This document shows positions 14,957 through 64,000 of a stretch of DNA of 64,000 nucleotides, piece by piece. Numbering within the stretch: position 1 is the stretch's first letter; every line of letters starts with the position of its first letter. The translations under genes and the position numbers were made by a program. Source of the stretch: Candidatus Hydrogenedens sp. (GTDB lineage Bacteria > Hydrogenedentota > Hydrogenedentia > Hydrogenedentales > Hydrogenedentaceae); NCBI GenBank assembly GCA_049968235.1, contig JBMFRC010000009.1:68913-132912 (forward strand). Reading direction: 5' to 3'. The notes beneath the pieces are model-generated. The model saw only the letters and a list, made by a program, of their open reading frames with translations, was not told the origin of the DNA and ran no database searches.

Positions 14957-15042
14957 ATAGAAATTATAGAATAAAAAATAAATCCCGATAATTTTACCTC
15001 TTTCCCAGAAATACAATCCTTTATTGACATGAAAGTATATCC

Positions 15043-15077
15043 ATAAAAAAGCCTCTCGTAAAAAGAGAGGCTTTTTT
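15043..15077. terminator. Bidirectional rho-independent terminator.
   Basis: Perfect hairpin GCCTCTC-gtaaaaa-GAGAGGC flanked by an A-run on one side and a T-run on the other. It terminates the + strand gene ending at 14956 and the - strand tRNA-Leu ending at 15079. Confidence 0.7.
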
Positions 15078-15078
15078 A

Positions 15079-15165
15079 TGGTGCCCGGGAGGAGAATTGA
15101 ACTCCTACCCCATTTCTGGGACCAGATCCTTAGTCTGGCGCGTCTGCCATTTCCGCCACCCGGGC
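15079..15165 (-). tRNA. Class II (long variable arm) tRNA, most likely tRNA-Leu. The anticodon loop reads CUAAGGA, so the anticodon appears to be AAG.
   Basis: Hand-folded: acceptor GCCCGGG/CCCGGGC, discriminator A and CCA are encoded. D-stem is 3 bp. Anticodon stem CCAGA/TCTGG. Long variable arm CCCAGAAATGGGG. T-arm AGGAG-TTCAATT-CTCCT. Confidence 0.7.
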
Positions 15166-48052: not shown

Positions 48053-48736
48053 CTACCTTTCCAATTTTTTATGGGAGAACCACCAATCGAAACATTCATA
48101 ACCACCTTCTTTTGCTTTAGATAAACGTTCTTTGGCACTATGGGTATCCGTTGGTGGTGGTATAATCACGCGGTCCTTAATCAATTCATTGTTAGGCCAA
48201 TTTTCAGGCATGGCAACCTTATACTTGTCCGCAATTTGTAACGCCTCTACAATTCGGACAACTTCGTCAATATTTCTACCTACCTCTTGCGGATAATAAA
48301 TAATCAACCGTATCCTGGCTTTGTCATCCACAACAAATACTGCACGAACTGTATTCGTACCTTTTCCCGGATGGACCAATCCAAGAGTATTAGCAATGGC
48401 TCCATTATCTGCAATAATAGGAAATTGAATATCAATTCCTAACTTCTCCCGTATCCATTCTTCCCACTTTATATGTGAGAACACCTGGTCCATACTTAGA
48501 CCTATCAATTCGCAATTTAACGTCTTAAACTTATCATACCGTTTTTGAAATGCAACAAACTCTGTGGTGCATACAGGCGTAAAATCCGCTGGGTGGCTGA
48601 ACAGAACAAACCACTTTCCTGCAAATGCCTTTGGCAATTCCATTTTCCCATGTGTTGTCATTACATTCATCGCAGGGAACTCATCTCCTAATAATGGAAT
48701 CCCTTGTTTTGTCCCTTCAGAACTATTCATAGACAC
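48053..48736 (-). CDS. 1-Cys peroxiredoxin (Prx6-like).
   Basis: FTPVCTTEF peroxidatic-Cys motif. 227 aa. Confidence 0.85.
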
Positions 48737-48786
48737 TCTCCTTTCCTGAAAATAAAGTTAAATGTTACATAACACAATGAAAAATT

Positions 48787-49555
48787 ATATGAGACCTCTG
48801 AATAAGTCATTCGAGTTAGCTAGTATGTATAAAGATATTATATACGAGAGGGGGTGAAAAAAAAATGAAACGAGATAAGAGAGAAAAGTGCTATAAATAT
48901 AGCAGAAGTATTTTGGGTTAAATAACAAAGCAAGGGAAAAATAAAAATGAAGGAAAATCAACGTAGTATGGTAAAAAAGATAGAGCAAACAAGTTTTATA
49001 GATTACGAGATGTTCCATCAGAAACCGCCTCGTCGTAGATGTTCTTTGAGGCAGATGCAAGAAGTAATACTATGGAAGGAACTTGGGTAGAGGGCGTATA
49101 GGGAGGAGTATATAAGGTGAACAGGGGAGAACGAAGACTTACGTCCTTACTATTTTATGCATTATTGAGCAGTGCGTGATAATGTCTATGTGCTTTTGTG
49201 GCTATTACATCCAAATCTTTACCTTTTCTTTTCTCAGTATTTTCTTTGGTTGATTATATTTTTTCCCCACTACCAAAGAACACGGAGGTGCATGGAGGAT
49301 ACGGTGGGGTACAGTGAGACATAGGGAGAGGAGTATATCATTTCTTCTGAATGACTAAATATATTTGAAATGGATGTATGATTAGAGGTATGCATAGATA
49401 CAAAAAGATAGAAAACGGACAGAAAAAACAAAATAAATTGATAAAAGTAGAAATACAGACTTTTGTATTTTAATTTCTCATCGGGATTTTATCTCGTAAA
49501 AATATATATAATTTATACCATTACCTCTTACACCACTTTTTCAGAGGTCTCATAT
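48787..49555. mobile_element. 769-bp non-coding element bounded by a perfect 16-bp inverted repeat (ATATGAGACCTCTGAA). MITE-like, or a candidate invertible segment.
   Basis: Left end 48787-48802 is the reverse complement of right end 49540-49555. No credible ORF inside. Internal imperfect repeats (AGGGAG(G/AG)GAGTATAT twice). The right repeat overlaps the last codons of the methyltransferase gene. Confidence 0.45.
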
Positions 49556-50503
49556 CTTTTTTTGGTCCCTCAATGTATTCCGTTCCCAGAATACTCCATC
49601 CACATAGCCTTGAATTGTTCTATCAGAGTTGGCTAATTCTAATCGTTTTTCTGCTAAACAGCAATAAGTTTCGTCGATTTCTACCCCGCAATATTGCCTT
49701 CCTAATTTTTTAGCCACAACACATGTAGTCCCTACACCCGAAAACGGGTCAAATATAAAATCACCTTCTTTTGAACTGGCAAGGATAATTTTCGCTACGA
49801 GTTTCTCCGGTTTTTGTGTTGGATGGTCTGTATTCTCAGGCATAGACCAGAACGGCACAGTTATATCTGTCCATAAATTAGAAGGATATGTAAGCCGATA
49901 ATTGCCATCGGTTTCTACTTTCCAATCTTTAGGGTTACCTGTTTCATCACGATAAGGTGCAATTACTTTCCGTTTCAGCATTACCGCTTTGCTATTAAAA
50001 TAAAATTTATTTGAGACCGTTCCAAACCATATATCTTCCGAACAATTTTTCCAGTTATTCTTCGCACCTCTACCTTTTTCCCGTTCCCATGTAATTCGAT
50101 TTCGCACCTTAAAATATTTTGACATAACTCGATAAATAGCGGAGGAAGATTTCCAATCTCCACAGATATAAATAGAACCTGTCTGCTTTAATATCTTTCT
50201 CAACGGTTTTAACCAGGAATCCATCCATATTTCATACTCTTCCGAAGACATTTCACGAAATTTATTCGAATTAAAGTCTTTATGCAAATTATAAGGGGGG
50301 TCTATAAATAACAAATCAACAAATGATTCAGGTAAAAAGTCAATAACTTCAAACAAATCTTGATGAAGAATTTTGTTGGTTATCTTCTCAACCGATACAG
50401 GATGGTTAATTCGTAAAATCTGTTTCGTATAAATCGATACTTCTTGTTTTGAGAGGGTTGTTGTCCTATTCCGTCCTGCTTTAAGATGTTTATCTACTGA
50501 CAT
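49550..50503 (-). CDS. Beta-class DNA (N6-adenine or N4-cytosine) methyltransferase, apparently orphan.
   Basis: Motif IV DPPY (LLFIDPPYNL) comes before motif I (IFDPFSGVGTT). No restriction endonuclease gene is adjacent. Confidence 0.8.
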   Translation of the reverse strand: MSVDKHLKAGRNRTTTLSKQEVSIYTKQILRINHPVSVEKITNKILHQDLFEVIDFLPESFVDLLFIDPPYNLHKDFNSNKFREMSSEEYEIWMDSWLKPLRKILKQTGSIYICGDWKSSSAIYRVMSKYFKVRNRITWEREKGRGAKNNWKNCSEDIWFGTVSNKFYFNSKAVMLKRKVIAPYRDETGNPKDWKVETDGNYRLTYPSNLWTDITVPFWSMPENTDHPTQKPEKLVAKIILASSKEGDFIFDPFSGVGTTCVVAKKLGRQYCGVEIDETYCCLAEKRLELANSDRTIQGYVDGVFWERNTLRDQKKI

Positions 50504-50556: not shown

Positions 50557-50915
50557 TGGTGGAGGCGGCGGGAATCGAACCCGCGTCCGAAGATGTTTCA
50601 GTGCGGACCTACTACATGCTTAGCCCATCCTTTATAGATTCGCCATTGCGGAGCGCCTCAGGGCGGGCTCACCACAACCGCTATGCGGGATAGTTACTGC
50701 CTTTCAGGCACCGCAAATCCCAAAAGGACAGACCTGCTGGTTGACGCCCCAGTCCGTTAGCAGGCAATCACGGGTGGGACGCGCTGCGCGTATTAGGCAG
50801 CGAGGGCCAATTCTTGATTGGCAGTTGTTTGCGACCGGCTTTTAACGAGGCCAACCGGTCAACCTCGGCATGCATTCCACACCTCAACCATCCCCGTCGA
50901 AACCTTTTCGCCCCC
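50557..50915 (-). ncRNA. ssrA: tmRNA (SsrA).
   Basis: On the - strand the 5' end is GGGGGCGAAAAGGTTTCGACGGGG. The 3' tRNA-like end is GGACGCGGGTTCGATTCCCGCCGCCTCCACCA. The internal tag reading frame ends ...GCC AAT CAA GAA TTG GCC CTC GCT GCC TAA (ANQELALAA-stop). Confidence 0.9.
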
Positions 50916-51079
50916 AGCAACATCCTATTATTCAATTGTTGTATTATATTATACGATATTTGATATCTAAAAATTTACAATAAAGATAAATTTTTTCAAT
51001 AATATATTATTCTATTACTTATGTTGTCCCTATCTTTCTGGCTAAGATAAAATTAGACATGTCGAGAGGAAGTGAAGTA

Positions 51080-52719
51080 ATGAAAAATTTCTTCTCAAAA
51101 AAATCCTGCAAATCAATCTACTACCCTTTTGGATTCATTTTTTCTATCGTGCTAATTAATACGATTGCAAATAGTGAAGGAAATCAACCAACATCTTTAT
51201 CTACAACAATAGACCCCATTACTCGTTATATTCACATTTCATATACAGTCCCTGCAGGTACACCCGGAGAAAAACAATCTTATGCTCATGATCTCCTATG
51301 GACAGACAACACATAGTCCTGAAACAAACCCATTACTACACAGGTTATACCGAAAGTAGAATTGATTATATTAAGTTAGTCCCCTTATCCACAGAACAGG
51401 TACAAATGTTAGAAAGCCAATTTGGAACACCCGACAAAATCGTTGCAGGCTATTTTGAACCTTACTCATGGGCATTCTTCGAGGATATACAGGAAAGCCT
51501 GCAACATCGAGAACCTATTTCCACATATAAGGAAGCACGAGTTAATATCGTAGACATCCAGGTGGGTCGCTTCGGCATGAAAGTCGTTTATGAATCACGC
51601 TTAACCGACCAATTTCTTTACAACACTATCGGCGACCCTATCGGCGGTGTTATCCCCCATACAAGTAATGTCGGAAAAATGCAACAAATGACCAACACAT
51701 TACAAACCGAACTCCAATATGCCCACGAATTAGGCTTAACCGCACACGCCAACTTCGGAGCGACCTACTGCTATCCCGACACACCATTACAAAGTGATTT
51801 TTCAAAACAACACCCCGATTGGATGACGGACGGATTATTGAGATATGACATACCCGAAGTTCGTCAATATATCTTATCCTTACTAAAAGAGACGCTTGAA
51901 ATTGGTGCAGATGGCATCTCCATAGATTTTTGTAGGTATCCCGGTGGTATTGACAAACCTGAAACTTGCAATCAATTCCTGCGAGAACTCAAAGCACTAC
52001 GCGAAGAATTTGCAAAAAAACGTGATAAATCCATACCCTTATTACTCCGTTTCCCGGCGGAAGGTGTAAGTCTCTGGAAAAATTTCGACTACAACACATG
52101 GATTCATGAAGGATTAGTTGATTACCTCTGCCCAAGCAACATCTAGGGCAGACATATGCACTTCGACATCACCCCATACAGCAACGCCGTTCGTGGCTCA
52201 ACATGCAAACTACTCCCCGTCATTGATGGATTAAGTTGGGGACTCGAAATACCCGCCCTATTCCTATGGCGTATCCATCAACTCTACCAGGCAGGCACCG
52301 ACGGCATTTATGTATACCAATCCGACGCACGCATCTGCACCAATAAACGACCAGAAGACAGACGCTGTATACGACTCATTTCCAGTAGCGAAGCAGTTCA
52401 TAACTGGTGGCAACGATACAACAAACAAAATCAACAATTTAGCAAACGCATCTGGATACAACCCTCCGAAGACGGAGACCTCGAATACCATAACTGGGAA
52501 CGCTGTCGAATCTGGGTAGAAGGAATTACCCCTAACGAGGTCCAAATCCTCCTCGATGGACAACTCACCAATACTTATACTCAACCTCCCTAAATACTTG
52601 GCGGAGAAGATTACACCTACGATAACCTTATCACCCCCGGCACACACACCCTCACCATCCACGCCAAAACACAAGACACCACTCTATCCCAAACTTTCAC
52701 CATCTCCGGCACAAAATAA
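51080..52719 (+). pseudogene. Disrupted GHL10/DUF4015-like glycoside-hydrolase-like gene (frameshift plus two in-frame stops).
   Basis: Signal-peptide ORF in frame 2 (MKNFFSKK...) runs into the frame-1 ORF near 51290-51300. Frame 1 then continues through TAG 52144-52146 and TAA 52591-52593 to TAA 52717. The motif GADGISIDFCRYPGG resembles GHL10 DGIHLDYIRYP. The C-terminus has an Ig-like beta segment (YTYDNLITPGTHTLTIHAKTQDTTLSQTFTISG). Confidence 0.55.
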
Positions 52720-52792: not shown

Positions 52793-53056
52793 TTATAAGG
52801 ATAGAATTACACTATTAGAATCTACCCCATATTTATTGAAATATTGGTTTATATCCTTATAATGTTTTATTCGGTGAGGGTCCAAATAATACAATTCCCA
52901 ATGGCTAAGACTATTTATTATATAGTCCATGATTCTTTCATATTCTCTTTCATTCCGAATCACGTGTTCGTAATAATTCCTTTGCCATGACTTCCTGTTT
53001 TCGTTTTCCAATCCAAAATTCTTATCCCCACATATATAGCCATTTGTTGTCATCAT
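52793..53056 (-). mobile_element. C-terminal fragment of an IS200/IS605-family Y1 (REP-associated, RAYT-like) transposase. Probably a remnant.
   Basis: WQRNYYEHVIRNEREYERIMDYIINSL parallels the RAYT/TnpA(IS200) C-terminus (FWEHAIRN..DY...DYI..NP). The HUH-containing N-terminal half is missing. Confidence 0.5.
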
Positions 53057-56867: not shown

Positions 56868-56946
56868 ATTTGTTTCTCCATGTTTGGATTTAATAATTGT
56901 TATGGCAAAAAAGGAAAGATAAATGCAAATAAAGTTGGGGGAGAAT

Positions 56947-56974
56947 CGGACGGGTCGGACGGGTCAGACGGGGT
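56947..56974. repeat. 9-bp tandem repeat array A, (CGGACGGGT)x3 in GTCRGACRR register, just 5' of tRNA-Pro.
   Basis: The same family is seen in arrays at 57113-57168, 57544-57598 and 57786-57822. Confidence 0.7.
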
Positions 56975-57024: not shown

Positions 57025-57102
57025 CGGGGCGTAGCGCAGTCCGGCTAGCGCACTTGGTTTGGGTCCAAGGGGTCGCCGGTTCAAATCCGGCCGCCCCGAC
57101 CA
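57025..57102 (+). tRNA. tRNA-Pro (TGG).
   Basis: Acceptor CGGGGCG/CGCCCCG, anticodon stem-loop CTTGG-TTTGGGT-CCAAG, T-arm GCCGG-TTCAAAT-CCGGC, discriminator A, CCA encoded. Confidence 0.85.
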
Positions 57103-57112
57103 TGAAGTTAAA

Positions 57113-57168
57113 GGGTCAGACAAGTCAGACGGGTCGGACAGGTCAGACAAGTCGGACAAGTCGGACGA
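57113..57168. repeat. 9-bp tandem repeat array B, (GTCRGACRR)x6, immediately 3' of tRNA-Pro.
   Basis: Reads GTCAGACAA GTCAGACGG GTCGGACAG GTCAGACAA GTCGGACAA GTCGGACGA. Confidence 0.75.
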
Positions 57169-57786: not shown

Positions 57787-57822
57787 AGTCGGACGGGTCG
57801 GACGGGTCGGACAAGTCGGACA
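57786..57822. repeat. 9-bp tandem repeat array D, (GTCGGACRR)x4, immediately after the four-helix-bundle stop.
   Basis: Reads GTCGGACGG GTCGGACGG GTCGGACAA GTCGGACA. Confidence 0.75.
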
Positions 57823-57958: not shown

Positions 57959-60900
57959 ATGGAAAGAAACATTTGTCATTTCATTACGAATCATGAACAA
58001 AAAAGTCTTCGGGAACGTATAAGAGAACTTATTACTATCAGCAAAGAACTTAAAATTTTAGTGGGTTTCTTCTATTTTTCCGGGATAACAGAGTTGTATG
58101 AAAGTTTACAAAAAAATCCTAACATTGTGATTAAAGTGCTTATAGGTATGGATGTCGATAAATTAATTAATAAGTTGATTGAATATGCCAATCCAGACAC
58201 CTCATTAACTGATAAAGATAGAATTGACTATTTTTTTAAATCATTAAAAACGGCTCTTACTTCCGAAGATATGGACCGTCCCGAGCCCTACCGACAGATT
58301 TCTTATTTCCTGAAACTCATCCAGGAAAATCGTATTATCATCCGAAAAACAAGAAAACCCAATCATTCAAAACTTTATATCTTCAAAATATCAGAAGGGC
58401 AGGATTTAATTCGCGATACGCTATTCATCACGGGAAGTAGCAATTTGACACACGCAGGTCTATCGGGACAGGGCGAGTTCAATGTTGAAATAAGTGATTA
58501 TGGAACAAAAGAAGCGGAAGCGTTTTTTGACGATTTATGGGATGATGCAGTGAAAATCACAGAAACAGAGGAAACAAAAAAGAAACTAATCCAGATTATC
58601 AATACGGAAACAATGTTTGCATCGATAAAACCTTTTGAGGCTTATACCCTGGTCCTGAAATCCTACCTTGATGCAAATAGTATGAAAGAGGTTAGTTTAG
58701 AGTCCCTTAAAGAAACTATGGAGAAAAAAGGATATGTGCCTTATAAATATCAGATGGACGCTGTTCAATTAGCTTTATCTATTATCAATGCTTATGACGG
58801 CGTTATTATTGCCGACGTGGTCGGTTTGGGCAAAACGATTATTGCCTGTGCCGTAGCCCGACTTTTAAGAAAACGCGGAATTGTCATCTCTCCACCGGGG
58901 ATTATGGGCGATGAGTTGAGGCAATATGGTTGGCGTAAGTATATCGAAGAATTTGGTCTCTATGACTGGGAGGTTTTTTCCAGCGGGAAACTTGATACCA
59001 TATTGAAAACAGTTCGTAGATGTGAAGATATTGAGGTGATTATCATTGATGAAGCACATAAATACCGCAATCAGGATACAGAAAGTTACGAACTGTTAAA
59101 AAATATATGTCTGCATAAAAAAGTTATCCTTTTAACTGCAACTCCGTTCAGTAATTCTCCCAGTGATGTATTTTCATTACTAAAATTATTTACTGTTCCG
59201 GGCAAATCAAAGTTATCCCTGACTGATAATTTAGATTTTCTGTTTAATGAATACAAAAATACTTTTAATCAATTATCACATATACAAAAATACCATGATT
59301 CGCAAGATGCAGAGAAAAAACAAAAAGCACAGACCTATTATAATAAGTTATTCGGTTCAGATAATATTGATTTAACAACGGTAAAAAAGCGGACAAAATA
59401 CCTTGCCAATACAATTCGCTCAATTATCCAGCCTGTGCTTATACGGCGAAATCGGATTGACCTACAAAATGACCCGGATTACCAAAACGAGATTAAGGAT
59501 TTATCCAGATTAGAAAATCCGAAAGAGTTGTTCTATGAGTTAAGCCCGGACCAATCGCTGTTTTACGATAAAGTTATTAGCACTTACTTTGGTGAAAACG
59601 GTGCATTTTCAGGTGCTATTTATCGCCCGTATTATTACGAAGAAAAATCCGATTTGGAAGATATCGATGAGGATATAGAAACCAATGGTAAGGATGGGAA
59701 AAAAGTGGAGGAACAGAGAGAACAACTAAGCCAGAAAAACTTATATGATTTTATGAGACGATTATTAGTGAAACGATTTGAGAGTTCTTTCGGTGCGTTC
59801 CAACAAAGCGTTAAAAATTTTATTGAGATTCATAAAAAGATACTTCAATTCATTGAAAAAACAAACAAATATATCCTCAATCGCAAGTTATTGGAACATA
59901 TTTATGAAATGGACCCGGATGAAATTGACGAGGAATTAGAACGATTTAAAGAAGAAATTGCAAAATTAGATAAACCCGACTCACATATCCATAAGGTTTA
60001 TGATTTGAAGGACTTCCACTTCAAGGATGAGTTTATTAAAAATATTAATGATGATATTCAATTGTTTGAAGGAATTCTCAAAGAGATTGAAGACCTTCAT
60101 TTGATACAGAAAGACCCGAAATCGAAATCTTTAGCAGAAGAAATCCCAAAAATTATCCAGAATAAAGAAGAAAATGAATCCAAACGAAAGATAGTTATCT
60201 TTACTGAGTATATAGATACAGCCCGCCATTTAGAAGAACAGATGAAGCACTTATTACCCGAAAACTTGAAAAATCGTATTTTAACAGTCATAGGAAAGCC
60301 GTCCGATGACCGTTATGAGACGCTATTAAAAAATTTCGATGCCAGTTATGAAAAGAACCAACAGGAAGATACCTATGACATTCTTATAACAACAGACCGA
60401 CTTTCCGAAGGATTTAATCTGAATCGTGCTGGCGCAGTTATTAATTATGATATTCCGTGGAACCCGACACGGGTCATACAGCGTGTAGGACGAATAAATC
60501 GAATCAGTAAAAAGGTCTACAATACTTTATATATCTACAATTTCTTCCCAACAGAAACAGGTGCTGATGTTGTCAAAAGTCGTGAAATAGCCCAGCATAA
60601 GATGTTCCTCATTCATAATACAATTGGTGAAGATGCCCGTATTTTTGAGCCCGATGAGGAACCTACTGCTTCGCGATTATACACCAAAGTTATGACTCTT
60701 CCGGATGAACTCGAGCCAGAAAGTTTATATACGACCATAAAGAAGAAATATTACGAGATAAAAAAGAACTATCCGGAAGTCATTCGAACCATAGAGAAAT
60801 ACCCTTCACGTGTAAAAACGGCAAAGAAATACCACACCTACAACCTCGTTGTATTTTTAAGAAAAGGCAGAAGTATATTTGTAAAATATACCGATGGAAC

Positions 60901-61357
60901 ACCTGGCACAACCGCTGAAAAACCGCTTGAAGATGCATTGAATTATATCCAGTGTGAATATGAAGAACAACCCCTTCACATTTCAGACAAATTCTGGAAT
61001 AATTATATATCTCTCATTGAAGTAGCAACTACGGATTTTTCAAGAGGAAGGAAAATTTGGACTGAGGCAATGACCAATATTAAAACAATATTGCAACAAT
61101 TACCCGCAGAATTGGATGACTATAAAAGTTTCCTTAACATATTATCAGAAGATATTTCATACTATCGGACATTGTCCGATTATACCATCCGACGAATTCG
61201 AAATCTGAAACTGGATAAGGAAAAACAATTTAAAGAATTTAAAGAGGTCATTGATAAACTGCGAAACGATTTAGGAGATGATTACCTTACTAAAATTAAA
61301 AATGACCTAATATCTATTAAACCAGAAGTTATTATTGCGATGGAGAATCAACCTTAG
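57959..61357 (+). CDS. Fusion of a PLD-family (HKD) nuclease domain with an SNF2/SF2 helicase, 1132 aa.
   Basis: HKD motif NHSKLYIF...FITGSSNLTHAG near the N-terminus. Helicase motif I ADVVGLGKT, motif II IIIDEAHKYRN, motif III LLTATPFSN, motif V-VI ILITTDRLSEGFNLNRAGAVINYDIPWNPTRVIQRVGRINR. Confidence 0.8.
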   Translation: MERNICHFITNHEQKSLRERIRELITISKELKILVGFFYFSGITELYESLQKNPNIVIKVLIGMDVDKLINKLIEYANPDTSLTDKDRIDYFFKSLKTALTSEDMDRPEPYRQISYFLKLIQENRIIIRKTRKPNHSKLYIFKISEGQDLIRDTLFITGSSNLTHAGLSGQGEFNVEISDYGTKEAEAFFDDLWDDAVKITETEETKKKLIQIINTETMFASIKPFEAYTLVLKSYLDANSMKEVSLESLKETMEKKGYVPYKYQMDAVQLALSIINAYDGVIIADVVGLGKTIIACAVARLLRKRGIVISPPGIMGDELRQYGWRKYIEEFGLYDWEVFSSGKLDTILKTVRRCEDIEVIIIDEAHKYRNQDTESYELLKNICLHKKVILLTATPFSNSPSDVFSLLKLFTVPGKSKLSLTDNLDFLFNEYKNTFNQLSHIQKYHDSQDAEKKQKAQTYYNKLFGSDNIDLTTVKKRTKYLANTIRSIIQPVLIRRNRIDLQNDPDYQNEIKDLSRLENPKELFYELSPDQSLFYDKVISTYFGENGAFSGAIYRPYYYEEKSDLEDIDEDIETNGKDGKKVEEQREQLSQKNLYDFMRRLLVKRFESSFGAFQQSVKNFIEIHKKILQFIEKTNKYILNRKLLEHIYEMDPDEIDEELERFKEEIAKLDKPDSHIHKVYDLKDFHFKDEFIKNINDDIQLFEGILKEIEDLHLIQKDPKSKSLAEEIPKIIQNKEENESKRKIVIFTEYIDTARHLEEQMKHLLPENLKNRILTVIGKPSDDRYETLLKNFDASYEKNQQEDTYDILITTDRLSEGFNLNRAGAVINYDIPWNPTRVIQRVGRINRISKKVYNTLYIYNFFPTETGADVVKSREIAQHKMFLIHNTIGEDARIFEPDEEPTASRLYTKVMTLPDELEPESLYTTIKKKYYEIKKNYPEVIRTIEKYPSRVKTAKKYHTYNLVVFLRKGRSIFVKYTDGTPGTTAEKPLEDALNYIQCEYEEQPLHISDKFWNNYISLIEVATTDFSRGRKIWTEAMTNIKTILQQLPAELDDYKSFLNILSEDISYYRTLSDYTIRRIRNLKLDKEKQFKEFKEVIDKLRNDLGDDYLTKIKNDLISIKPEVIIAMENQP

Positions 61358-61380: not shown

Positions 61381-64000
61381 ATGAACCTGTCTGCCAAAAG
61401 ACATTTAGAGAACTTTATCGGAGCAACAAATTATGATGGGTTACAAAAATCGCTTATATGCTTTTTACAAGAAAAGACGGAACACTTTTCAGAGATGCCT
61501 GAGGACTATTCATTTCATTTTCGGGATGATAATTTTAATGAAGTCCAAAAAGTTGGTGAATTATCTCTAACACCGTCGTATGCTGAAGAAGGAGATAGTA
61601 CAGAAAAATTTATCGTGGTTACACTCCATACCACAGGGGGACTAACAGAGCGGAGTAGTAAAAAGCGTCAGTTCGACAAAGGGAAACAAATATTAAAAAC
61701 TTTGTATCAGACAGGCAATTTTGACCTCATCGGCGGTTTTTTCATTTTTTATGATGACGATTTTAATTATCGTTGGAGTTTGATTTATCAAGAACCGGCG
61801 GGCAGAAGATTACAATATAACCCCTACAAACGATATACCTATTTCGTATCACGAAATTTGACAAATAAAACCTTCATTCAGCAGTTATGTGCGGATGAAT
61901 CCTTTGACAGGTTAAATGACATCAAATCCGCATTCTCCGTAGAAAAGGTTACCCGAGAGTTTTATAACAAGGTGGCACAATGGTATTTCTGGGTGCTATC
62001 TGATGAAAAGATTAAATATCCCCCATCCGTTCCTAACCAAAACAACGGAAGAGAGTTGTTTTTAATCCGTCTCTTATCTCGATTGATTTTTATCTGGTTC
62101 ATGAAAGAGAAAAAACTTATTCCGGGAAAATTGTTCGATAGACAGGAATTAAGAAGCTATCTGCATGATATTGAAGATGACGGAACTGCTTATTACAATG
62201 CCATCCTCCAGAATTTATTCTTCGCTACACTGAACACACCTCAGGACAGACGACAATTCCGCAATGATAAACAATATCAAGGCAAGAATAACGATTACAT
62301 GAACCATAATAAATACAGGTATAAGGAACTATTCAAAAATGAAACGGATATAGAAGAGCTCTTCCAACCGATACCGTTCCTGAACGGCGGTCTATTTGAG
62401 TGTCTGGATAAAAGTAGAAAAGACCCAAAGAACCCGACAGAAGGAGAACTACGGCTGGATGGCTTCTCTTCATCGCATCAAAAACATCCTAATATTAGAA
62501 ATATCTTCTTTTTCGGTGAGGAACAAACGGTCGATATTAGTAAATATTTTGGGGACAATTCATATAAATCCGCAAAGGTTTACGGAATTATTGAAATATT
62601 AAAGGATTACAATTTCACGATTGATGAAAATGTTCCCGGTGATGAAGAAGTTGCCCTTGACCCGGAACTACTCGGAAAAATATTTGAAAATCTGCTTGCC
62701 AGTTATAACGAAGAGACATCGACCACCGCCAGAAAAGCCTCCGGCAGTTATTACACACCCCGCGAGATTGTAGAATTCATGTGTCGTGCTTCTCTGGTGG
62801 AATACCTGAAATTATGCCTGATTAAAAAGGGCTCTGCGGTTGATGTTAACGAGAAATCGCTGGATGAAAAACTTCATCAATTATTAGACCCTCATCAGGA
62901 AGAACTGCCCGTTTTTTCCGAAACGGAAAAGGATACACTCATCCATGCCATTAACAATCTTAAAGTATTGGACCCTGCGGTAGGTTCGGGAGCCTTTTTG
63001 ATGGGAATGTTACAACAACTTGTCCATATCCTATCTAAACTTGACCCACATAATGAGATGTGGAAACAACAGCAGATAGAGGGGGTAAAAAAATCTGTTT
63101 CCGACCCACAACTCCGGAATGAGTTAATCAACAAAATTGAAGAACAATTTCAAAAGAATGAACTGGACTACGGTAGGAAATTATATCTCATCCAGAACTG
63201 CCTGTTTGGTGTGGATATTCAACCTATTGCCATACAACTGGCAAAACTCCGCTTCTTTATCGCACTACTGGTGGATGAAAAGGTTGATAAAACACAGAAA
63301 AACAGCGGGATAGAACCTCTGCCTAATCTTGAAACAAAACTCGTCCCCGCAGATACTCTTCGTTCCTTAAACATAAAAACCGAAGACCTGTCTTCACCCG
63401 AAATACAGGAAGAAGAAAGGAAATTATTCGAGTTAAGAAAAAAATATTTTAGCGAATCAGACCAGAGAAAGAAAGAAACGATAAAAGAGGAGGATAAGAA
63501 AACGCGAAATAGAATAGAAGAATTACTTAAACAGGATTCTTTATATAATGATAAATTAGAAACTATCCTTGCATGGGACCCCTATGATGCCCATATTTCT
63601 GCGGACTGGTTCGACCCTGAATGGATGTTCGGCATCGACACAGGTTTCGACATCGTTATCGCTAATCCGCCGTATATCCAACTGCAAAAAGAGGGAGGGA
63701 AACTCGCTAAATTATACGAAAAACAAAACTACCAGACCTTTGCCCGCACGGGCGATATTTATGCCCTTTTTTACGAAAAAGGAATTCAAATACTGAGAGA
63801 TGGAGGACATCTTTGCTTCATTACCTCAAATAAATGGATGCGTGCGGGCTATGGTGAAAAATTGCGGAGTTTTTTTACACAATACAACCCATTGCTTCTT
63901 ATCGATTTGGGACCTGGTGTGTTTGAAAATGCTACTGTCGATACCAATATATTGCTGATACAAAAAAAGCAAACTCCAGCAAAACACCTCAAAGCCGTAA
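61381..64000 (+). CDS. Large gamma-class N6-adenine DNA methyltransferase (Eco57I/PglX/DrmMI/type IIG-like). 3' partial at the window edge.
   Basis: GSYYTPREIVEFM, motif I VLDPAVGSGAFL and motif IV IANPPYIQ, with motif I before motif IV. Long N-terminal region of about 400 aa, as in PglX-like enzymes. No stop before the window ends. Confidence 0.8.
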   Translation, partial: MNLSAKRHLENFIGATNYDGLQKSLICFLQEKTEHFSEMPEDYSFHFRDDNFNEVQKVGELSLTPSYAEEGDSTEKFIVVTLHTTGGLTERSSKKRQFDKGKQILKTLYQTGNFDLIGGFFIFYDDDFNYRWSLIYQEPAGRRLQYNPYKRYTYFVSRNLTNKTFIQQLCADESFDRLNDIKSAFSVEKVTREFYNKVAQWYFWVLSDEKIKYPPSVPNQNNGRELFLIRLLSRLIFIWFMKEKKLIPGKLFDRQELRSYLHDIEDDGTAYYNAILQNLFFATLNTPQDRRQFRNDKQYQGKNNDYMNHNKYRYKELFKNETDIEELFQPIPFLNGGLFECLDKSRKDPKNPTEGELRLDGFSSSHQKHPNIRNIFFFGEEQTVDISKYFGDNSYKSAKVYGIIEILKDYNFTIDENVPGDEEVALDPELLGKIFENLLASYNEETSTTARKASGSYYTPREIVEFMCRASLVEYLKLCLIKKGSAVDVNEKSLDEKLHQLLDPHQEELPVFSETEKDTLIHAINNLKVLDPAVGSGAFLMGMLQQLVHILSKLDPHNEMWKQQQIEGVKKSVSDPQLRNELINKIEEQFQKNELDYGRKLYLIQNCLFGVDIQPIAIQLAKLRFFIALLVDEKVDKTQKNSGIEPLPNLETKLVPADTLRSLNIKTEDLSSPEIQEEERKLFELRKKYFSESDQRKKETIKEEDKKTRNRIEELLKQDSLYNDKLETILAWDPYDAHISADWFDPEWMFGIDTGFDIVIANPPYIQLQKEGGKLAKLYEKQNYQTFARTGDIYALFYEKGIQILRDGGHLCFITSNKWMRAGYGEKLRSFFTQYNPLLLIDLGPGVFENATVDTNILLIQKKQTPAKHLKAV

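What the first reader, a model, noticed from the sequence alone, without database searches (positions are those of the whole stretch)
48787..49555. 769-bp non-coding element bounded by a perfect 16-bp inverted repeat between the peroxiredoxin and the orphan methyltransferase
ATATGAGACCTCTGAA at 48787-48802 is exactly reverse-complemented at 49540-49555, with partial extension to about 22 bp. The interior has no plausible ORF, but it does have internal direct repeats (AGGGAG(G/AG)GAGTATAT) and purine-rich tracts. Two readings are possible. One is a non-autonomous MITE-like transposon remnant, consistent with the IS200/RAYT fragment and pseudogenes nearby. The other is an invertible promoter segment (a phase-variation switch), since the right repeat overlaps the 3' end of the methyltransferase gene. 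A 3'-end position would be atypical for a promoter switch, though.
Basis: seen in the sequence. Interest (0 to 1): 0.5.

Follow-up and report, generated by a model that had tools for sequence, protein, structure and literature searches.

The report
Small non-autonomous IS5/IS1182-type transposon insertion
The 769-bp stretch is an ordinary "jumping gene" remnant: a 761-bp transposon without its own transposase (MITE-like) that landed in the stop codon of a DNA methyltransferase gene, just upstream of a peroxiredoxin gene, in a Candidatus Hydrogenedens genome.

Summary
There is a perfect 16-bp inverted repeat at 48787-48802 / 49540-49555, extending to 25 of 28 bases, and no credible gene lies between the arms.

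It is a non-autonomous, MITE-like transposable element of the IS5/IS1182 type. Four findings support this:
- **Empty sites.** Sister Hydrogenedens contigs have the methyltransferase stop and the peroxiredoxin start only 65-117 bp apart and carry no repeat. The window therefore holds a ~760-bp insertion.
- **Terminal repeat family.** The arm core GAGACCTCTGAAAAAGT ends many unrelated mobile elements in metagenomes. They range from ~120-bp MITEs to 1.2-kb and 1.7-kb elements encoding IS5-family and IS1182-family DDE transposases. 15 of 35 repeat pairs have exact 5-bp target duplications and 2 have 4-bp ones.
- **Second copy.** A diverged copy (73% identity over ~600 bp, ending at the same terminal repeat) sits at a different locus in a MAG of the same species.
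- **Flanks.** ATAT flanks both ends. Removing the element restores the ancestral "KI-stop" end of the methyltransferase.

The invertible-switch reading is not supported, and chance is excluded. No transposase gene is in the 64-kb window. This is a new member of a well-known kind, of low interest.

The parts
48791..49551 (.). The inserted element itself: 761 bp, non-coding, running from GAGACC... to ...GGTCTC.
   Evidence: It is absent from the orthologous methyltransferase-peroxiredoxin spacer of sister Hydrogenedens contigs, which is 65-73 bp or 117 bp. It is bounded by the family terminal repeat. No Pfam or Rfam hit.
48791..48807 (+). Left terminal inverted repeat, GAGACCTCTGAATAAGT. It matches 16 of 17 bases of the family core.
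   Evidence: The same 17-mer ends many unrelated elements in metagenome contigs.
49535..49551 (-). Right terminal inverted repeat. On the minus strand it reads GAGACCTCTGAAAAAGT, a perfect match to the family core.
   Evidence: The second copy, L144, ends at the same point with AAGAGGTCTC|ATATG.
48787..48790 (.). ATAT flank on the left: putative 4-bp target-site duplication.
   Evidence: Read directly from the sequence. Removing the element plus one ATAT gives AAG ATA TAA, the same K-I-stop end as the methyltransferase in L013-L015. ATAT is its own reverse complement, so it cannot be formally told apart from an extension of the repeat.
49552..49555 (.). ATAT flank on the right: putative target-site duplication, and the ancestral end of the methyltransferase ORF.
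   Evidence: Relatives all carry ...AAAAAAAGATAT(G/A)A at this point. In the window, the T of the TGA stop is position 49552 (flank), and the G and A are 49551-49550 (the first two bases of the element).
48947..49090 (+). A 47-codon ORF inside the element, probably not a gene. It may be a decayed remnant of a transposase N-terminus.
   Evidence: It was called as a gene only in MAG annotations. The L144 copy has a 75%-identical, longer version in which the window copy is frameshifted. Similarity to the N-terminus of IS5-type transposases of the same terminal-repeat family is weak, 7-9 bits. Pfam and NCBIfam do not confirm it.
49459..49534 (.). Subterminal block next to the right repeat. It is the best conserved long stretch between the two copies, about 90% against 73% overall.
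   Evidence: Pairwise alignment of the window and L144. The role as a transposase-binding region is inferred.
49550..50503 (-). Flanking gene: N6/N4 DNA methyltransferase. Its stop codon spans the insertion junction.
   Evidence: Pfam PF01555, E = 1.9e-43. Synteny tmRNA-methyltransferase-peroxiredoxin is conserved in relatives.
48053..48730 (-). Flanking gene: 1-Cys peroxiredoxin. Its ATG lies 60 bp from the element end.
   Evidence: The Shine-Dalgarno region and the proximal part of the ancestral spacer are retained next to the gene.

Best explanation
The segment is a non-autonomous, MITE-like transposable element with IS5/IS1182-type ends. It is 761 bp long (48791-49551).

Inferred mechanism: a DDE transposase of the IS5/IS1182 group, supplied in trans, bound the 17-bp terminal inverted repeats (GAGACCTCTGAAnAAGT). 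It cut the element out and pasted it into an A+T-rich target, with a short staggered cut whose repair duplicated ATAT.

Shown: the target was the last codons of the methyltransferase gene. The insertion rebuilt a stop codon (T from the flank, GA from the element), so the methyltransferase protein is unchanged. The peroxiredoxin gene is now separated from the methyltransferase by ~760 bp of foreign DNA, but it keeps its ribosome-binding site and the nearest 56-60 bp of its old upstream region.

Inferred: the copy is old, being 73% identical to the only other copy found. It carries no transposase, and none is present in the window. It is therefore probably an inert passenger today.
For: 1. **Empty sites.** In sister Hydrogenedens contigs (peroxiredoxin 89-92% identical) the methyltransferase stop and peroxiredoxin start are 65-73 bp apart (L007-L015) or 117 bp apart (L146-L148). 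None of these contigs has the repeat at the site.

2. **Shared end, varied context.** Outside flanks vary, interiors fall into discrete families, and many hits lie ~75-160 nt from contig ends.

3. **Pairs and duplications.** Inverted partners were found in about 45 loci, giving elements of ~120-130, 200-280, ~1014, ~1200 and ~1700-1760 bp. In a stricter set of 35 candidate pairs, 15 have an exact 5-bp direct repeat abutting the ends and 2 have a 4-bp one.

4. **Transposases.** The 1.7-kb members encode IS1182-family transposases (NF033551, 283.6 and 349.9 bits against a cut-off of 270). The 1.2-kb members encode IS5-family transposases (NF033581, 274.5 and 203.8 bits against a cut-off of 140). 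All carry DUF772 plus DDE_Tnp_1 domains.

5. **Literature.** Published IS5-family ends are nearly the same: GAGACCTTTGCAAAA in ISNme1, and matching ends in the ISPg elements and BrickBuilt MITEs of Porphyromonas (PMC4596501).

6. **Second copy.** L144 positions 7-577 align to window 48965-49562 at 72.9% identity over 620 columns (E = 2.9e-105). The match stops at the terminal repeat plus ATAT, and the flank is a different gene (a GFO_IDH_MocA oxidoreductase). L144 comes from MAG GCA_049969095.1, whose peroxiredoxin contig is 99.9% identical to the window.

7. **Assembly breaks.** Both contigs of that MAG break inside the element. L002 ends ~53 nt into it and L144 starts inside it, as expected for a repeat.

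8. **No coding or RNA signal.** No Pfam hit, no Rfam hit, and folding is not unusual, with a z-score of -1.8.
Against: - Only two copies are documented, and they are diverged. The left end of the second copy is missing because the contig is cut.
- The target duplication here is 4 bp and palindromic (ATAT), whereas 5 bp is the family norm. It is therefore ambiguous.
- No sister genome is close enough to give the exact pre-insertion sequence. The spacers differ by an ~11-nt indel.
- No cognate transposase was found in the window. The rest of the genome could not be searched, because the species is not in the genome collection scanned.
- At 761 bp the element is at the large end of the MITE size range.
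Confidence: 0.9

Rival explanations
1. Invertible promoter segment (phase-variation switch). A site-specific recombinase would flip the DNA between the inverted repeats and so switch peroxiredoxin expression on and off.
For: There are inverted repeats flanking a non-coding stretch just upstream of a gene.
Against: - The repeat is the conserved end of IS5/IS1182-type transposons.
- Relatives lack the whole segment rather than carrying it inverted.
- A diverged copy lies at an unrelated locus.
- The window and the one other full assembly share one orientation, and the partial contig agrees at the left end.
- Promoter-like matches in the segment are at the shuffled expectation, 4 found against 4.2 expected.
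- The genes immediately around the element (tmRNA, methyltransferase, peroxiredoxin, saccharopine dehydrogenase) include no recombinase. The window was not annotated exhaustively.
Confidence: 0.02
2. A dead autonomous insertion sequence. This would be a single IS5-type copy whose transposase gene has decayed or been deleted in place, rather than a member of a non-autonomous family that amplified.
For: - The 47-codon ORF and its longer L144 version align weakly with the N-terminus of IS5-type transposases carrying the same ends (...M(Q/D)EV(I/V)xWKE(L/I)G). Polarity relative to the imperfect and perfect repeats is the same.
- MITEs commonly arise from such deletion derivatives.
Against: - Scores are only 7-9 bits, against a 4-sequence database. 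Pfam and NCBIfam give nothing for either ORF version or for any frame of the element.
- The second copy shares the same transposase-less interior along ~600 bp. The deletion therefore predates the spread of the two copies, which is what defines a MITE-type derivative.
Confidence: 0.06
3. Chance palindrome pair, or a structured non-coding RNA or regulatory region closed by a long stem.
For: A 16-bp inverted pair within 1 kb arises by chance in about 3.5% of simulated windows.
Against: - Empty sites in relatives, a shared transposon end, target duplications in the family, and a second copy all argue against chance.
- No Rfam family matches.
- Folding energy is only 1.8 sd below shuffles.
Confidence: 0.02

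Closest known systems
MITEs derived from IS5-family insertion sequences, for example the Porphyromonas gingivalis BrickBuilt, MITE293 and MITE700 elements and the Neisseria ATR element linked to ISNme1 (PMC4596501)
   Same: - The terminal repeat is nearly identical: GAGACCT(C/T)TG(A/C)AAAA.
- There is no transposase and no recognisable transposase remnant.
- The interior is A+T-rich.
- Only the ends are shared with full-length insertion sequences.
- The location is intergenic, next to genes.
- Size is within the 50-1000 bp range quoted for MITEs.
   Different: - The host phylum is different (Hydrogenedentota) and the interior is unrelated.
- Only two diverged copies have been seen so far, against 10-20 per genome in those cases.
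- No parent insertion sequence has been identified in the same genome.
IS5-family (NF033581-type, ~1.2 kb) and IS1182-family (NF033551-type, ~1.7 kb) insertion sequences found here in metagenome contigs L043, L105, L107, L055, L044, L109, L125 and L073
   Same: The 17-bp end GAGACCTCTGAAAAAGT is the same. The short target duplications match: 4 bp in the IS5-type L105 and 5 bp in the IS1182-type L044. Targets are A+T-rich.
   Different: Those elements encode a DDE transposase and the window element does not. No interior nucleotide similarity was found.
REP/REPIN elements mobilised by RAYT (IS200-like) transposases
   Same: They are short non-coding repeats in intergenic regions, and a RAYT-like gene fragment lies 3 kb away.
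   Different: REPs are 20-40 nt imperfect palindromes, usually in closely spaced inverted pairs, and are handled by HUH/Y1 enzymes without target duplication. Here the ends are those of DDE-transposon families, lie 727 nt apart, and are associated with 4-5 bp duplications.

Membership tests
[quoted passage not shown] | Terminal inverted repeats | tested here: met
   The 17-nt ends match at 16 of 17 bases. The perfect repeat is 16 nt when the ATAT is included.
[quoted passage not shown] | No transposase gene; small size (about 50-1000 bp) | tested here: met
   The element is 761 bp. There is no Pfam hit in six frames and no tblastn hit to same-family transposases. The size range is quoted from PMC4596501.
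[quoted passage not shown] | Target-site duplication flanking the element | tested here: inconclusive
   ATAT lies on both sides and excision restores the ancestral K-I-stop end. ATAT is palindromic and only 4 bp. In the wider family, 15 of 35 pairs show exact 5-bp duplications and 2 show 4-bp ones.
[quoted passage not shown] | Presence/absence polymorphism: an empty site in related genomes | tested here: met
   All orthologous loci fetched from sister lineages lack it. The spacer is 65-117 bp.
[quoted passage not shown] | Several copies per genome | tested here: inconclusive
   Two copies at different loci in MAGs of one species: the window/L001 locus and L144. There are assembly breaks inside the element. 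The whole genome could not be searched, so the true copy number is unknown.
[quoted passage not shown] | Ends shared with a full-length insertion sequence able to mobilise it | tested here: met
   The same 17-mer bounds IS5- and IS1182-family elements in metagenome contigs. Whether such an element exists in this genome was not testable.
IS5 / IS1182 insertion sequences (autonomous) | Encodes a DDE transposase (DUF772 plus DDE_Tnp_1) | tested here: not met
   No such ORF or remnant passes any threshold. The element is therefore not an autonomous member, only a derivative or passenger with the family's ends.
Invertible DNA switch (phase variation) | Both orientations present; dedicated recombinase nearby; promoter inside | tested here: not met
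   The one other full assembly, and a partial contig covering the left end, show the window's orientation. No excess of promoter-like sites. No recombinase among the adjacent genes. Read-level heterogeneity is not testable with these tools.
REP/REPIN (RAYT-associated) | 20-40 nt imperfect palindromic units, closely paired, many copies, no target duplication | tested here: not met
   The arms are not themselves palindromic units. They lie 727 nt apart. There are only two arms in 64 kb. The ends match DDE-transposon families.

The most novel reading that the evidence does not exclude
Two more novel readings remain open.

1. The insertion has been co-opted. By landing in the methyltransferase stop codon, 60 bp upstream of the peroxiredoxin ATG, it may have uncoupled the peroxiredoxin from read-through transcription off the tmRNA/methyltransferase unit, and it may now supply its own promoter or regulatory sites.

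2. More broadly, the exact same 17-bp end is used by both IS5-type and IS1182-type transposases across several phyla. One pool of MITEs might then be cross-mobilised by two transposase families.
Probability: 0.1. Interest if true: 0.35.

Novelty: new member of a known kind. Interest (0 to 1): 0.1.

Why it matters
It matters little beyond annotation.

- The ~800-bp "gene desert" between two conserved neighbours is explained as a transposon insertion, not a switch, an RNA gene or a lost gene.
- The case gives a clean example of an insertion exactly into a stop codon that regenerates a stop.
- It shows that the slot downstream of the tmRNA gene varies in this lineage.
- It documents that the GAGACCTCTGAAAAAGT end is shared by IS5- and IS1182-type elements and many MITEs in uncultured phyla. 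That may help mobile-element annotation in MAGs, where such repeats break assemblies.

Tried and rejected
- **Rfam.** Gathering thresholds on the whole window, and E <= 10 on 48500-49800. Only the tmRNA and tRNAs were found, and nothing in the element.
- **Six-frame Pfam scan of the element.** Nothing.
- **Prophage or island boundary.** I looked for a direct repeat of the tmRNA 3' end that would mark an integrated island. None was found.
- **Genome-collection scan with the 21-mer.** Four single hits, in Brocadiales, Thermosulfurimonas and an uncultured bacterium. At first they looked like possible chance matches, since about 1-2 are expected. In two of them (L003, L005) an inverted partner later showed a small element of the same terminal-repeat family. 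The window's own species is not in that collection.
- **Viral-contig scan with the 17-mer.** Three hits without partners, at chance level.
- **Exact look-up of the 47-aa ORF.** Only the same locus. The homology search did find the second copy.
- **Transposase remnant in the interior.** Weak phmmer similarity was not confirmed by NCBIfam or Pfam. Left as inconclusive.
- **Interior similarity to the ~140 fetched loci.** None apart from the terminal repeats and L144.
- **Single-strand folding and the promoter/terminator scan.** Unremarkable.
- **Contamination of the metagenome hits.** About 10 of the 120 hits are one conserved coding gene of a gut bacterium, so they are chance matches and not elements.

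Full report
**The observation**

The sequence shows ATATGAGACCTCTGAA at 48787-48802 and its exact reverse complement at 49540-49555. With mismatches the repeat extends to 28 nt (25 of 28; 48780-48807 / 49535-49562).

The repeat lies between a 1-Cys peroxiredoxin gene (48053-48730, minus strand) and an N6/N4 DNA methyltransferase gene (49550-50503, minus strand; PF01555, E = 1.9e-43). A tmRNA gene (50557-50915, minus strand) sits directly upstream of the methyltransferase. The right arm overlaps the methyltransferase stop codon.

The interior has only short ORFs, no Pfam hit in six frames and no Rfam family. Its plus strand is purine-rich.

In 200 Markov simulations of the window, 7 contained any 16-bp inverted pair within 1 kb. 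In the real window this is the only long-range one.

**Source organism and orthologous loci**

The flanking proteins are annotated in public records as Candidatus Hydrogenedens sp..

- One MAG contig (L001) carries the same locus at 99.98% identity.
- A second MAG of the same species (GCA_049969095.1) has a contig, L002, that is 99.9% identical. It stops about 53 nt inside the element.
- In sister lineages (peroxiredoxin 89-92% identical, methyltransferase 81-86%), the order tmRNA-methyltransferase-peroxiredoxin-saccharopine dehydrogenase-IF3 is conserved.
- In those lineages the methyltransferase stop and peroxiredoxin start are only 65-73 bp apart (L007-L015) or 117 bp apart (L146-L148). No trace of the repeat is present.

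The window therefore contains an insertion of about 760 bp.

**The junctions**

On the minus strand the junctions read:

...AAAAAAAG ATAT | GAGACCTCTGAAAAAGT ... ACTTATTCAGAGGTCTC | ATAT AATTTTTC...

Relatives all have ...AAAAAAAGATAT(G/A)A at the end of the methyltransferase gene. Removing the element and one ATAT gives AAG ATA TAA, the K-I-stop end seen with a TAA stop in L013-L015.

The present TGA stop is built from the flank's T plus the first GA of the element. The insertion thus hit the stop codon and regenerated a stop.

**What the repeat is**

The genome-collection scan with ATATGAGACCTCTGAANAAGT gave four single hits with no flanking similarity: two in Brocadiales, one in Thermosulfurimonas and one in an uncultured bacterium. 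About 1-2 hits are expected by chance. Closer inspection found an inverted partner in two of them, giving small elements of 121 bp (L003) and 129 bp (L005).

- In these hits the sequence outside the 17-mer varies.
- The sequence inside falls into discrete families that recur with different outside flanks.
- Many hits lie 75-160 nt from a contig end, the signature of a dispersed repeat that breaks assemblies.
- About ten hits are one conserved gut-bacterial coding gene, so they are chance matches.

Inverted partners were found in about 45 loci, giving elements of ~120-130, 200-280, ~1014, ~1200 and ~1700-1760 bp. In a stricter set of 35 candidate pairs, 15 have an exact 5-bp direct repeat abutting GAGACC...GGTCTC and 2 have a 4-bp one.

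The long members encode transposases:

| Element size | Transposase family | NCBIfam model | Scores (bits) | Cut-off (bits) |
|---|---|---|---|---|
| ~1.7 kb | IS1182 family | NF033551 | 283.6 and 349.9 | 270 |
| ~1.2 kb | IS5 family | NF033581 | 274.5 and 203.8 | 140 |

All of them carry DUF772 and DDE_Tnp_1 domains.

The literature gives nearly the same end for IS5-family elements and their MITEs. It is GAGACCTTTGCAAAA in ISNme1, with matching ends in the ISPg1/ISPg9 elements and BrickBuilt MITEs of Porphyromonas. That paper also notes that such MITEs share only the ends with the insertion sequences and keep no transposase remnant (PMC4596501). An IS1182-family element with 16/16 inverted repeats and a 4-bp duplication is tabulated in PMC3281130.

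**A second copy of this element**

A homology search with the 47-codon ORF inside the element found one relative, 75% identical. It lies at the start of a 9.1-kb contig, L144, of MAG GCA_049969095.1, the same MAG as L002.

- L144 positions 7-577 align with window 48965-49562 at 72.9% identity over 620 columns (E = 2.9e-105).
- The alignment includes a 42-nt identical block and a ~90% identical subterminal region.
- The similarity stops at ...AAGAGGTCTC|ATATG.
- The flank there is a GFO_IDH_MocA oxidoreductase gene and an ABC-transporter cluster, not the methyltransferase locus.

The element is thus a coherent unit present at two or more loci in this species. The copies are old, and both contigs of that MAG break inside it.

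**Mechanism**

*Shown:*
- It is an insertion relative to relatives.
- It has transposon-type ends shared with IS5/IS1182 elements.
- Short duplications occur across the family.
- A second copy exists.
- It has no transposase of its own.

*Inferred:*
- It moved by cut-and-paste, mobilised by an IS5/IS1182-type DDE transposase supplied in trans.
- Repair of a staggered cut produced the ATAT duplication.
- It is inactive at present. No transposase gene is in the window, and the rest of the genome could not be searched.

*Effects on neighbours.* The methyltransferase protein is unchanged. The peroxiredoxin keeps its ribosome-binding site and about 60 bp of its old spacer. Whether its transcription changed is unknown. 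Promoter-like matches in the element are at shuffled expectation, and no terminator-like site was found.

**Rivals**

- **Invertible switch.** Contradicted by the empty sites, the transposon identity of the repeat, the unrelated second locus, and one orientation in the window and the other full assembly, with the partial contig agreeing at the left end.
- **Dead autonomous insertion sequence.** There is a weak resemblance between the internal ORF and the N-terminus of IS5-type transposases. Curated profiles do not support it. Both copies share the same transposase-less interior, so any deletion predates their spread.
- **Chance or a structured RNA.** Excluded by the family evidence, the lack of any Rfam hit, and unremarkable folding.
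- **REP/RAYT link.** The RAYT-like fragment at 52793-53056 is real but belongs to a different transposition system.

**Verdict**

This is an ordinary MITE-like, non-autonomous IS5/IS1182-type element: a new member of a known kind and of low interest.

The refined boundaries are 48791-49551, flanked by ATAT.

Noticed in passing
window 50557-50915 (-); L008, L010, L013, L145, L016: A tmRNA gene (tag ANQELALAA) lies directly upstream of the methyltransferase. The tmRNA-methyltransferase-peroxiredoxin order is conserved in close relatives, but the slot downstream of the tmRNA varies in more distant ones. In L016 an RNase_H_2-like gene replaces the methyltransferase. In L145 there is a ~1.1-kb non-coding spacer, and an NTP_transf_2/HEPN toxin-antitoxin pair replaces the peroxiredoxin. 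No repeat of the tmRNA 3' end was found in the window.
   Followed up: partly
window 52793-53056 (-): A short ORF ends with ...QRNYYEHVIRNEREYERIMDYIINS, which I recognise from memory as resembling the C-terminal part of IS200-like/RAYT transposases. It was not checked against a profile library, and it is unrelated to the DDE-type ends of the element.
   Followed up: partly
window 51059-52593 (+): Three consecutive ORFs of 85, 282 and 145 aa. The two longer ones have no Pfam hit. They look like one gene broken by frameshifts, possibly a pseudogene, between the tmRNA and the fucosidase gene.
   Followed up: no
window 56946-56972, 57113-57167, 57788-57821: Arrays of a 9-nt tandem repeat (GTCGGACGG / GTCAGACAA; 3-6 copies each). 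The first two flank tRNA-Pro (57025-57102). The third lies just beyond the 3' end of a 150-aa ORF that looks like a four-helix-bundle protein.
   Followed up: partly
window 57959-61357 (+) and 61381-64000 (+, runs off the window): A PLD-nuclease/SNF2-helicase fusion protein of 1132 aa is followed by a long open frame with an adenine-methyltransferase NPPY motif that continues past the window end. This looks like a restriction or defence gene pair.
   Followed up: no
window 15041-15081: A perfect 17-bp-stem hairpin (CCATAAAAAAGCCTCTC...GAGAGGCTTTTTTATGG) abuts tRNA-Leu (15079-15165). It is probably a bidirectional terminator.
   Followed up: no
window 49255-49340; L144 225-320; L145 1245-1286, 1476-1517, 1676-1700: A heptad-like motif (ACCACAGAGGACACGGAGA..CACGGAGAG.CACAGAGG) recurs in the second element copy. 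It also occurs in inverted pairs in the tmRNA-methyltransferase spacer of a related lineage, next to a terminal-repeat-like AATTATTCAGAGGTCTC. It is degenerate in the window copy. It may be a separate small repeat family of Hydrogenedens genomes.
   Followed up: partly
L005 6393-7616 (Brocadiales); L073 2000-2039; L093: There are complex arrangements of the same terminal repeat. L005 has three ends within 1.2 kb around a 210-aa non-transposase ORF. L073 has two elements head-to-head, 6 bp apart. L093 is a 1.16-kb contig bounded on both sides by copies of one element.
   Followed up: no
L145 5237-6986: In a related Hydrogenedens-like contig, a Cas9 gene (Cas9_a, HNH_4 and RuvC_III domains) sits next to the conserved saccharopine dehydrogenase gene.
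   Followed up: no
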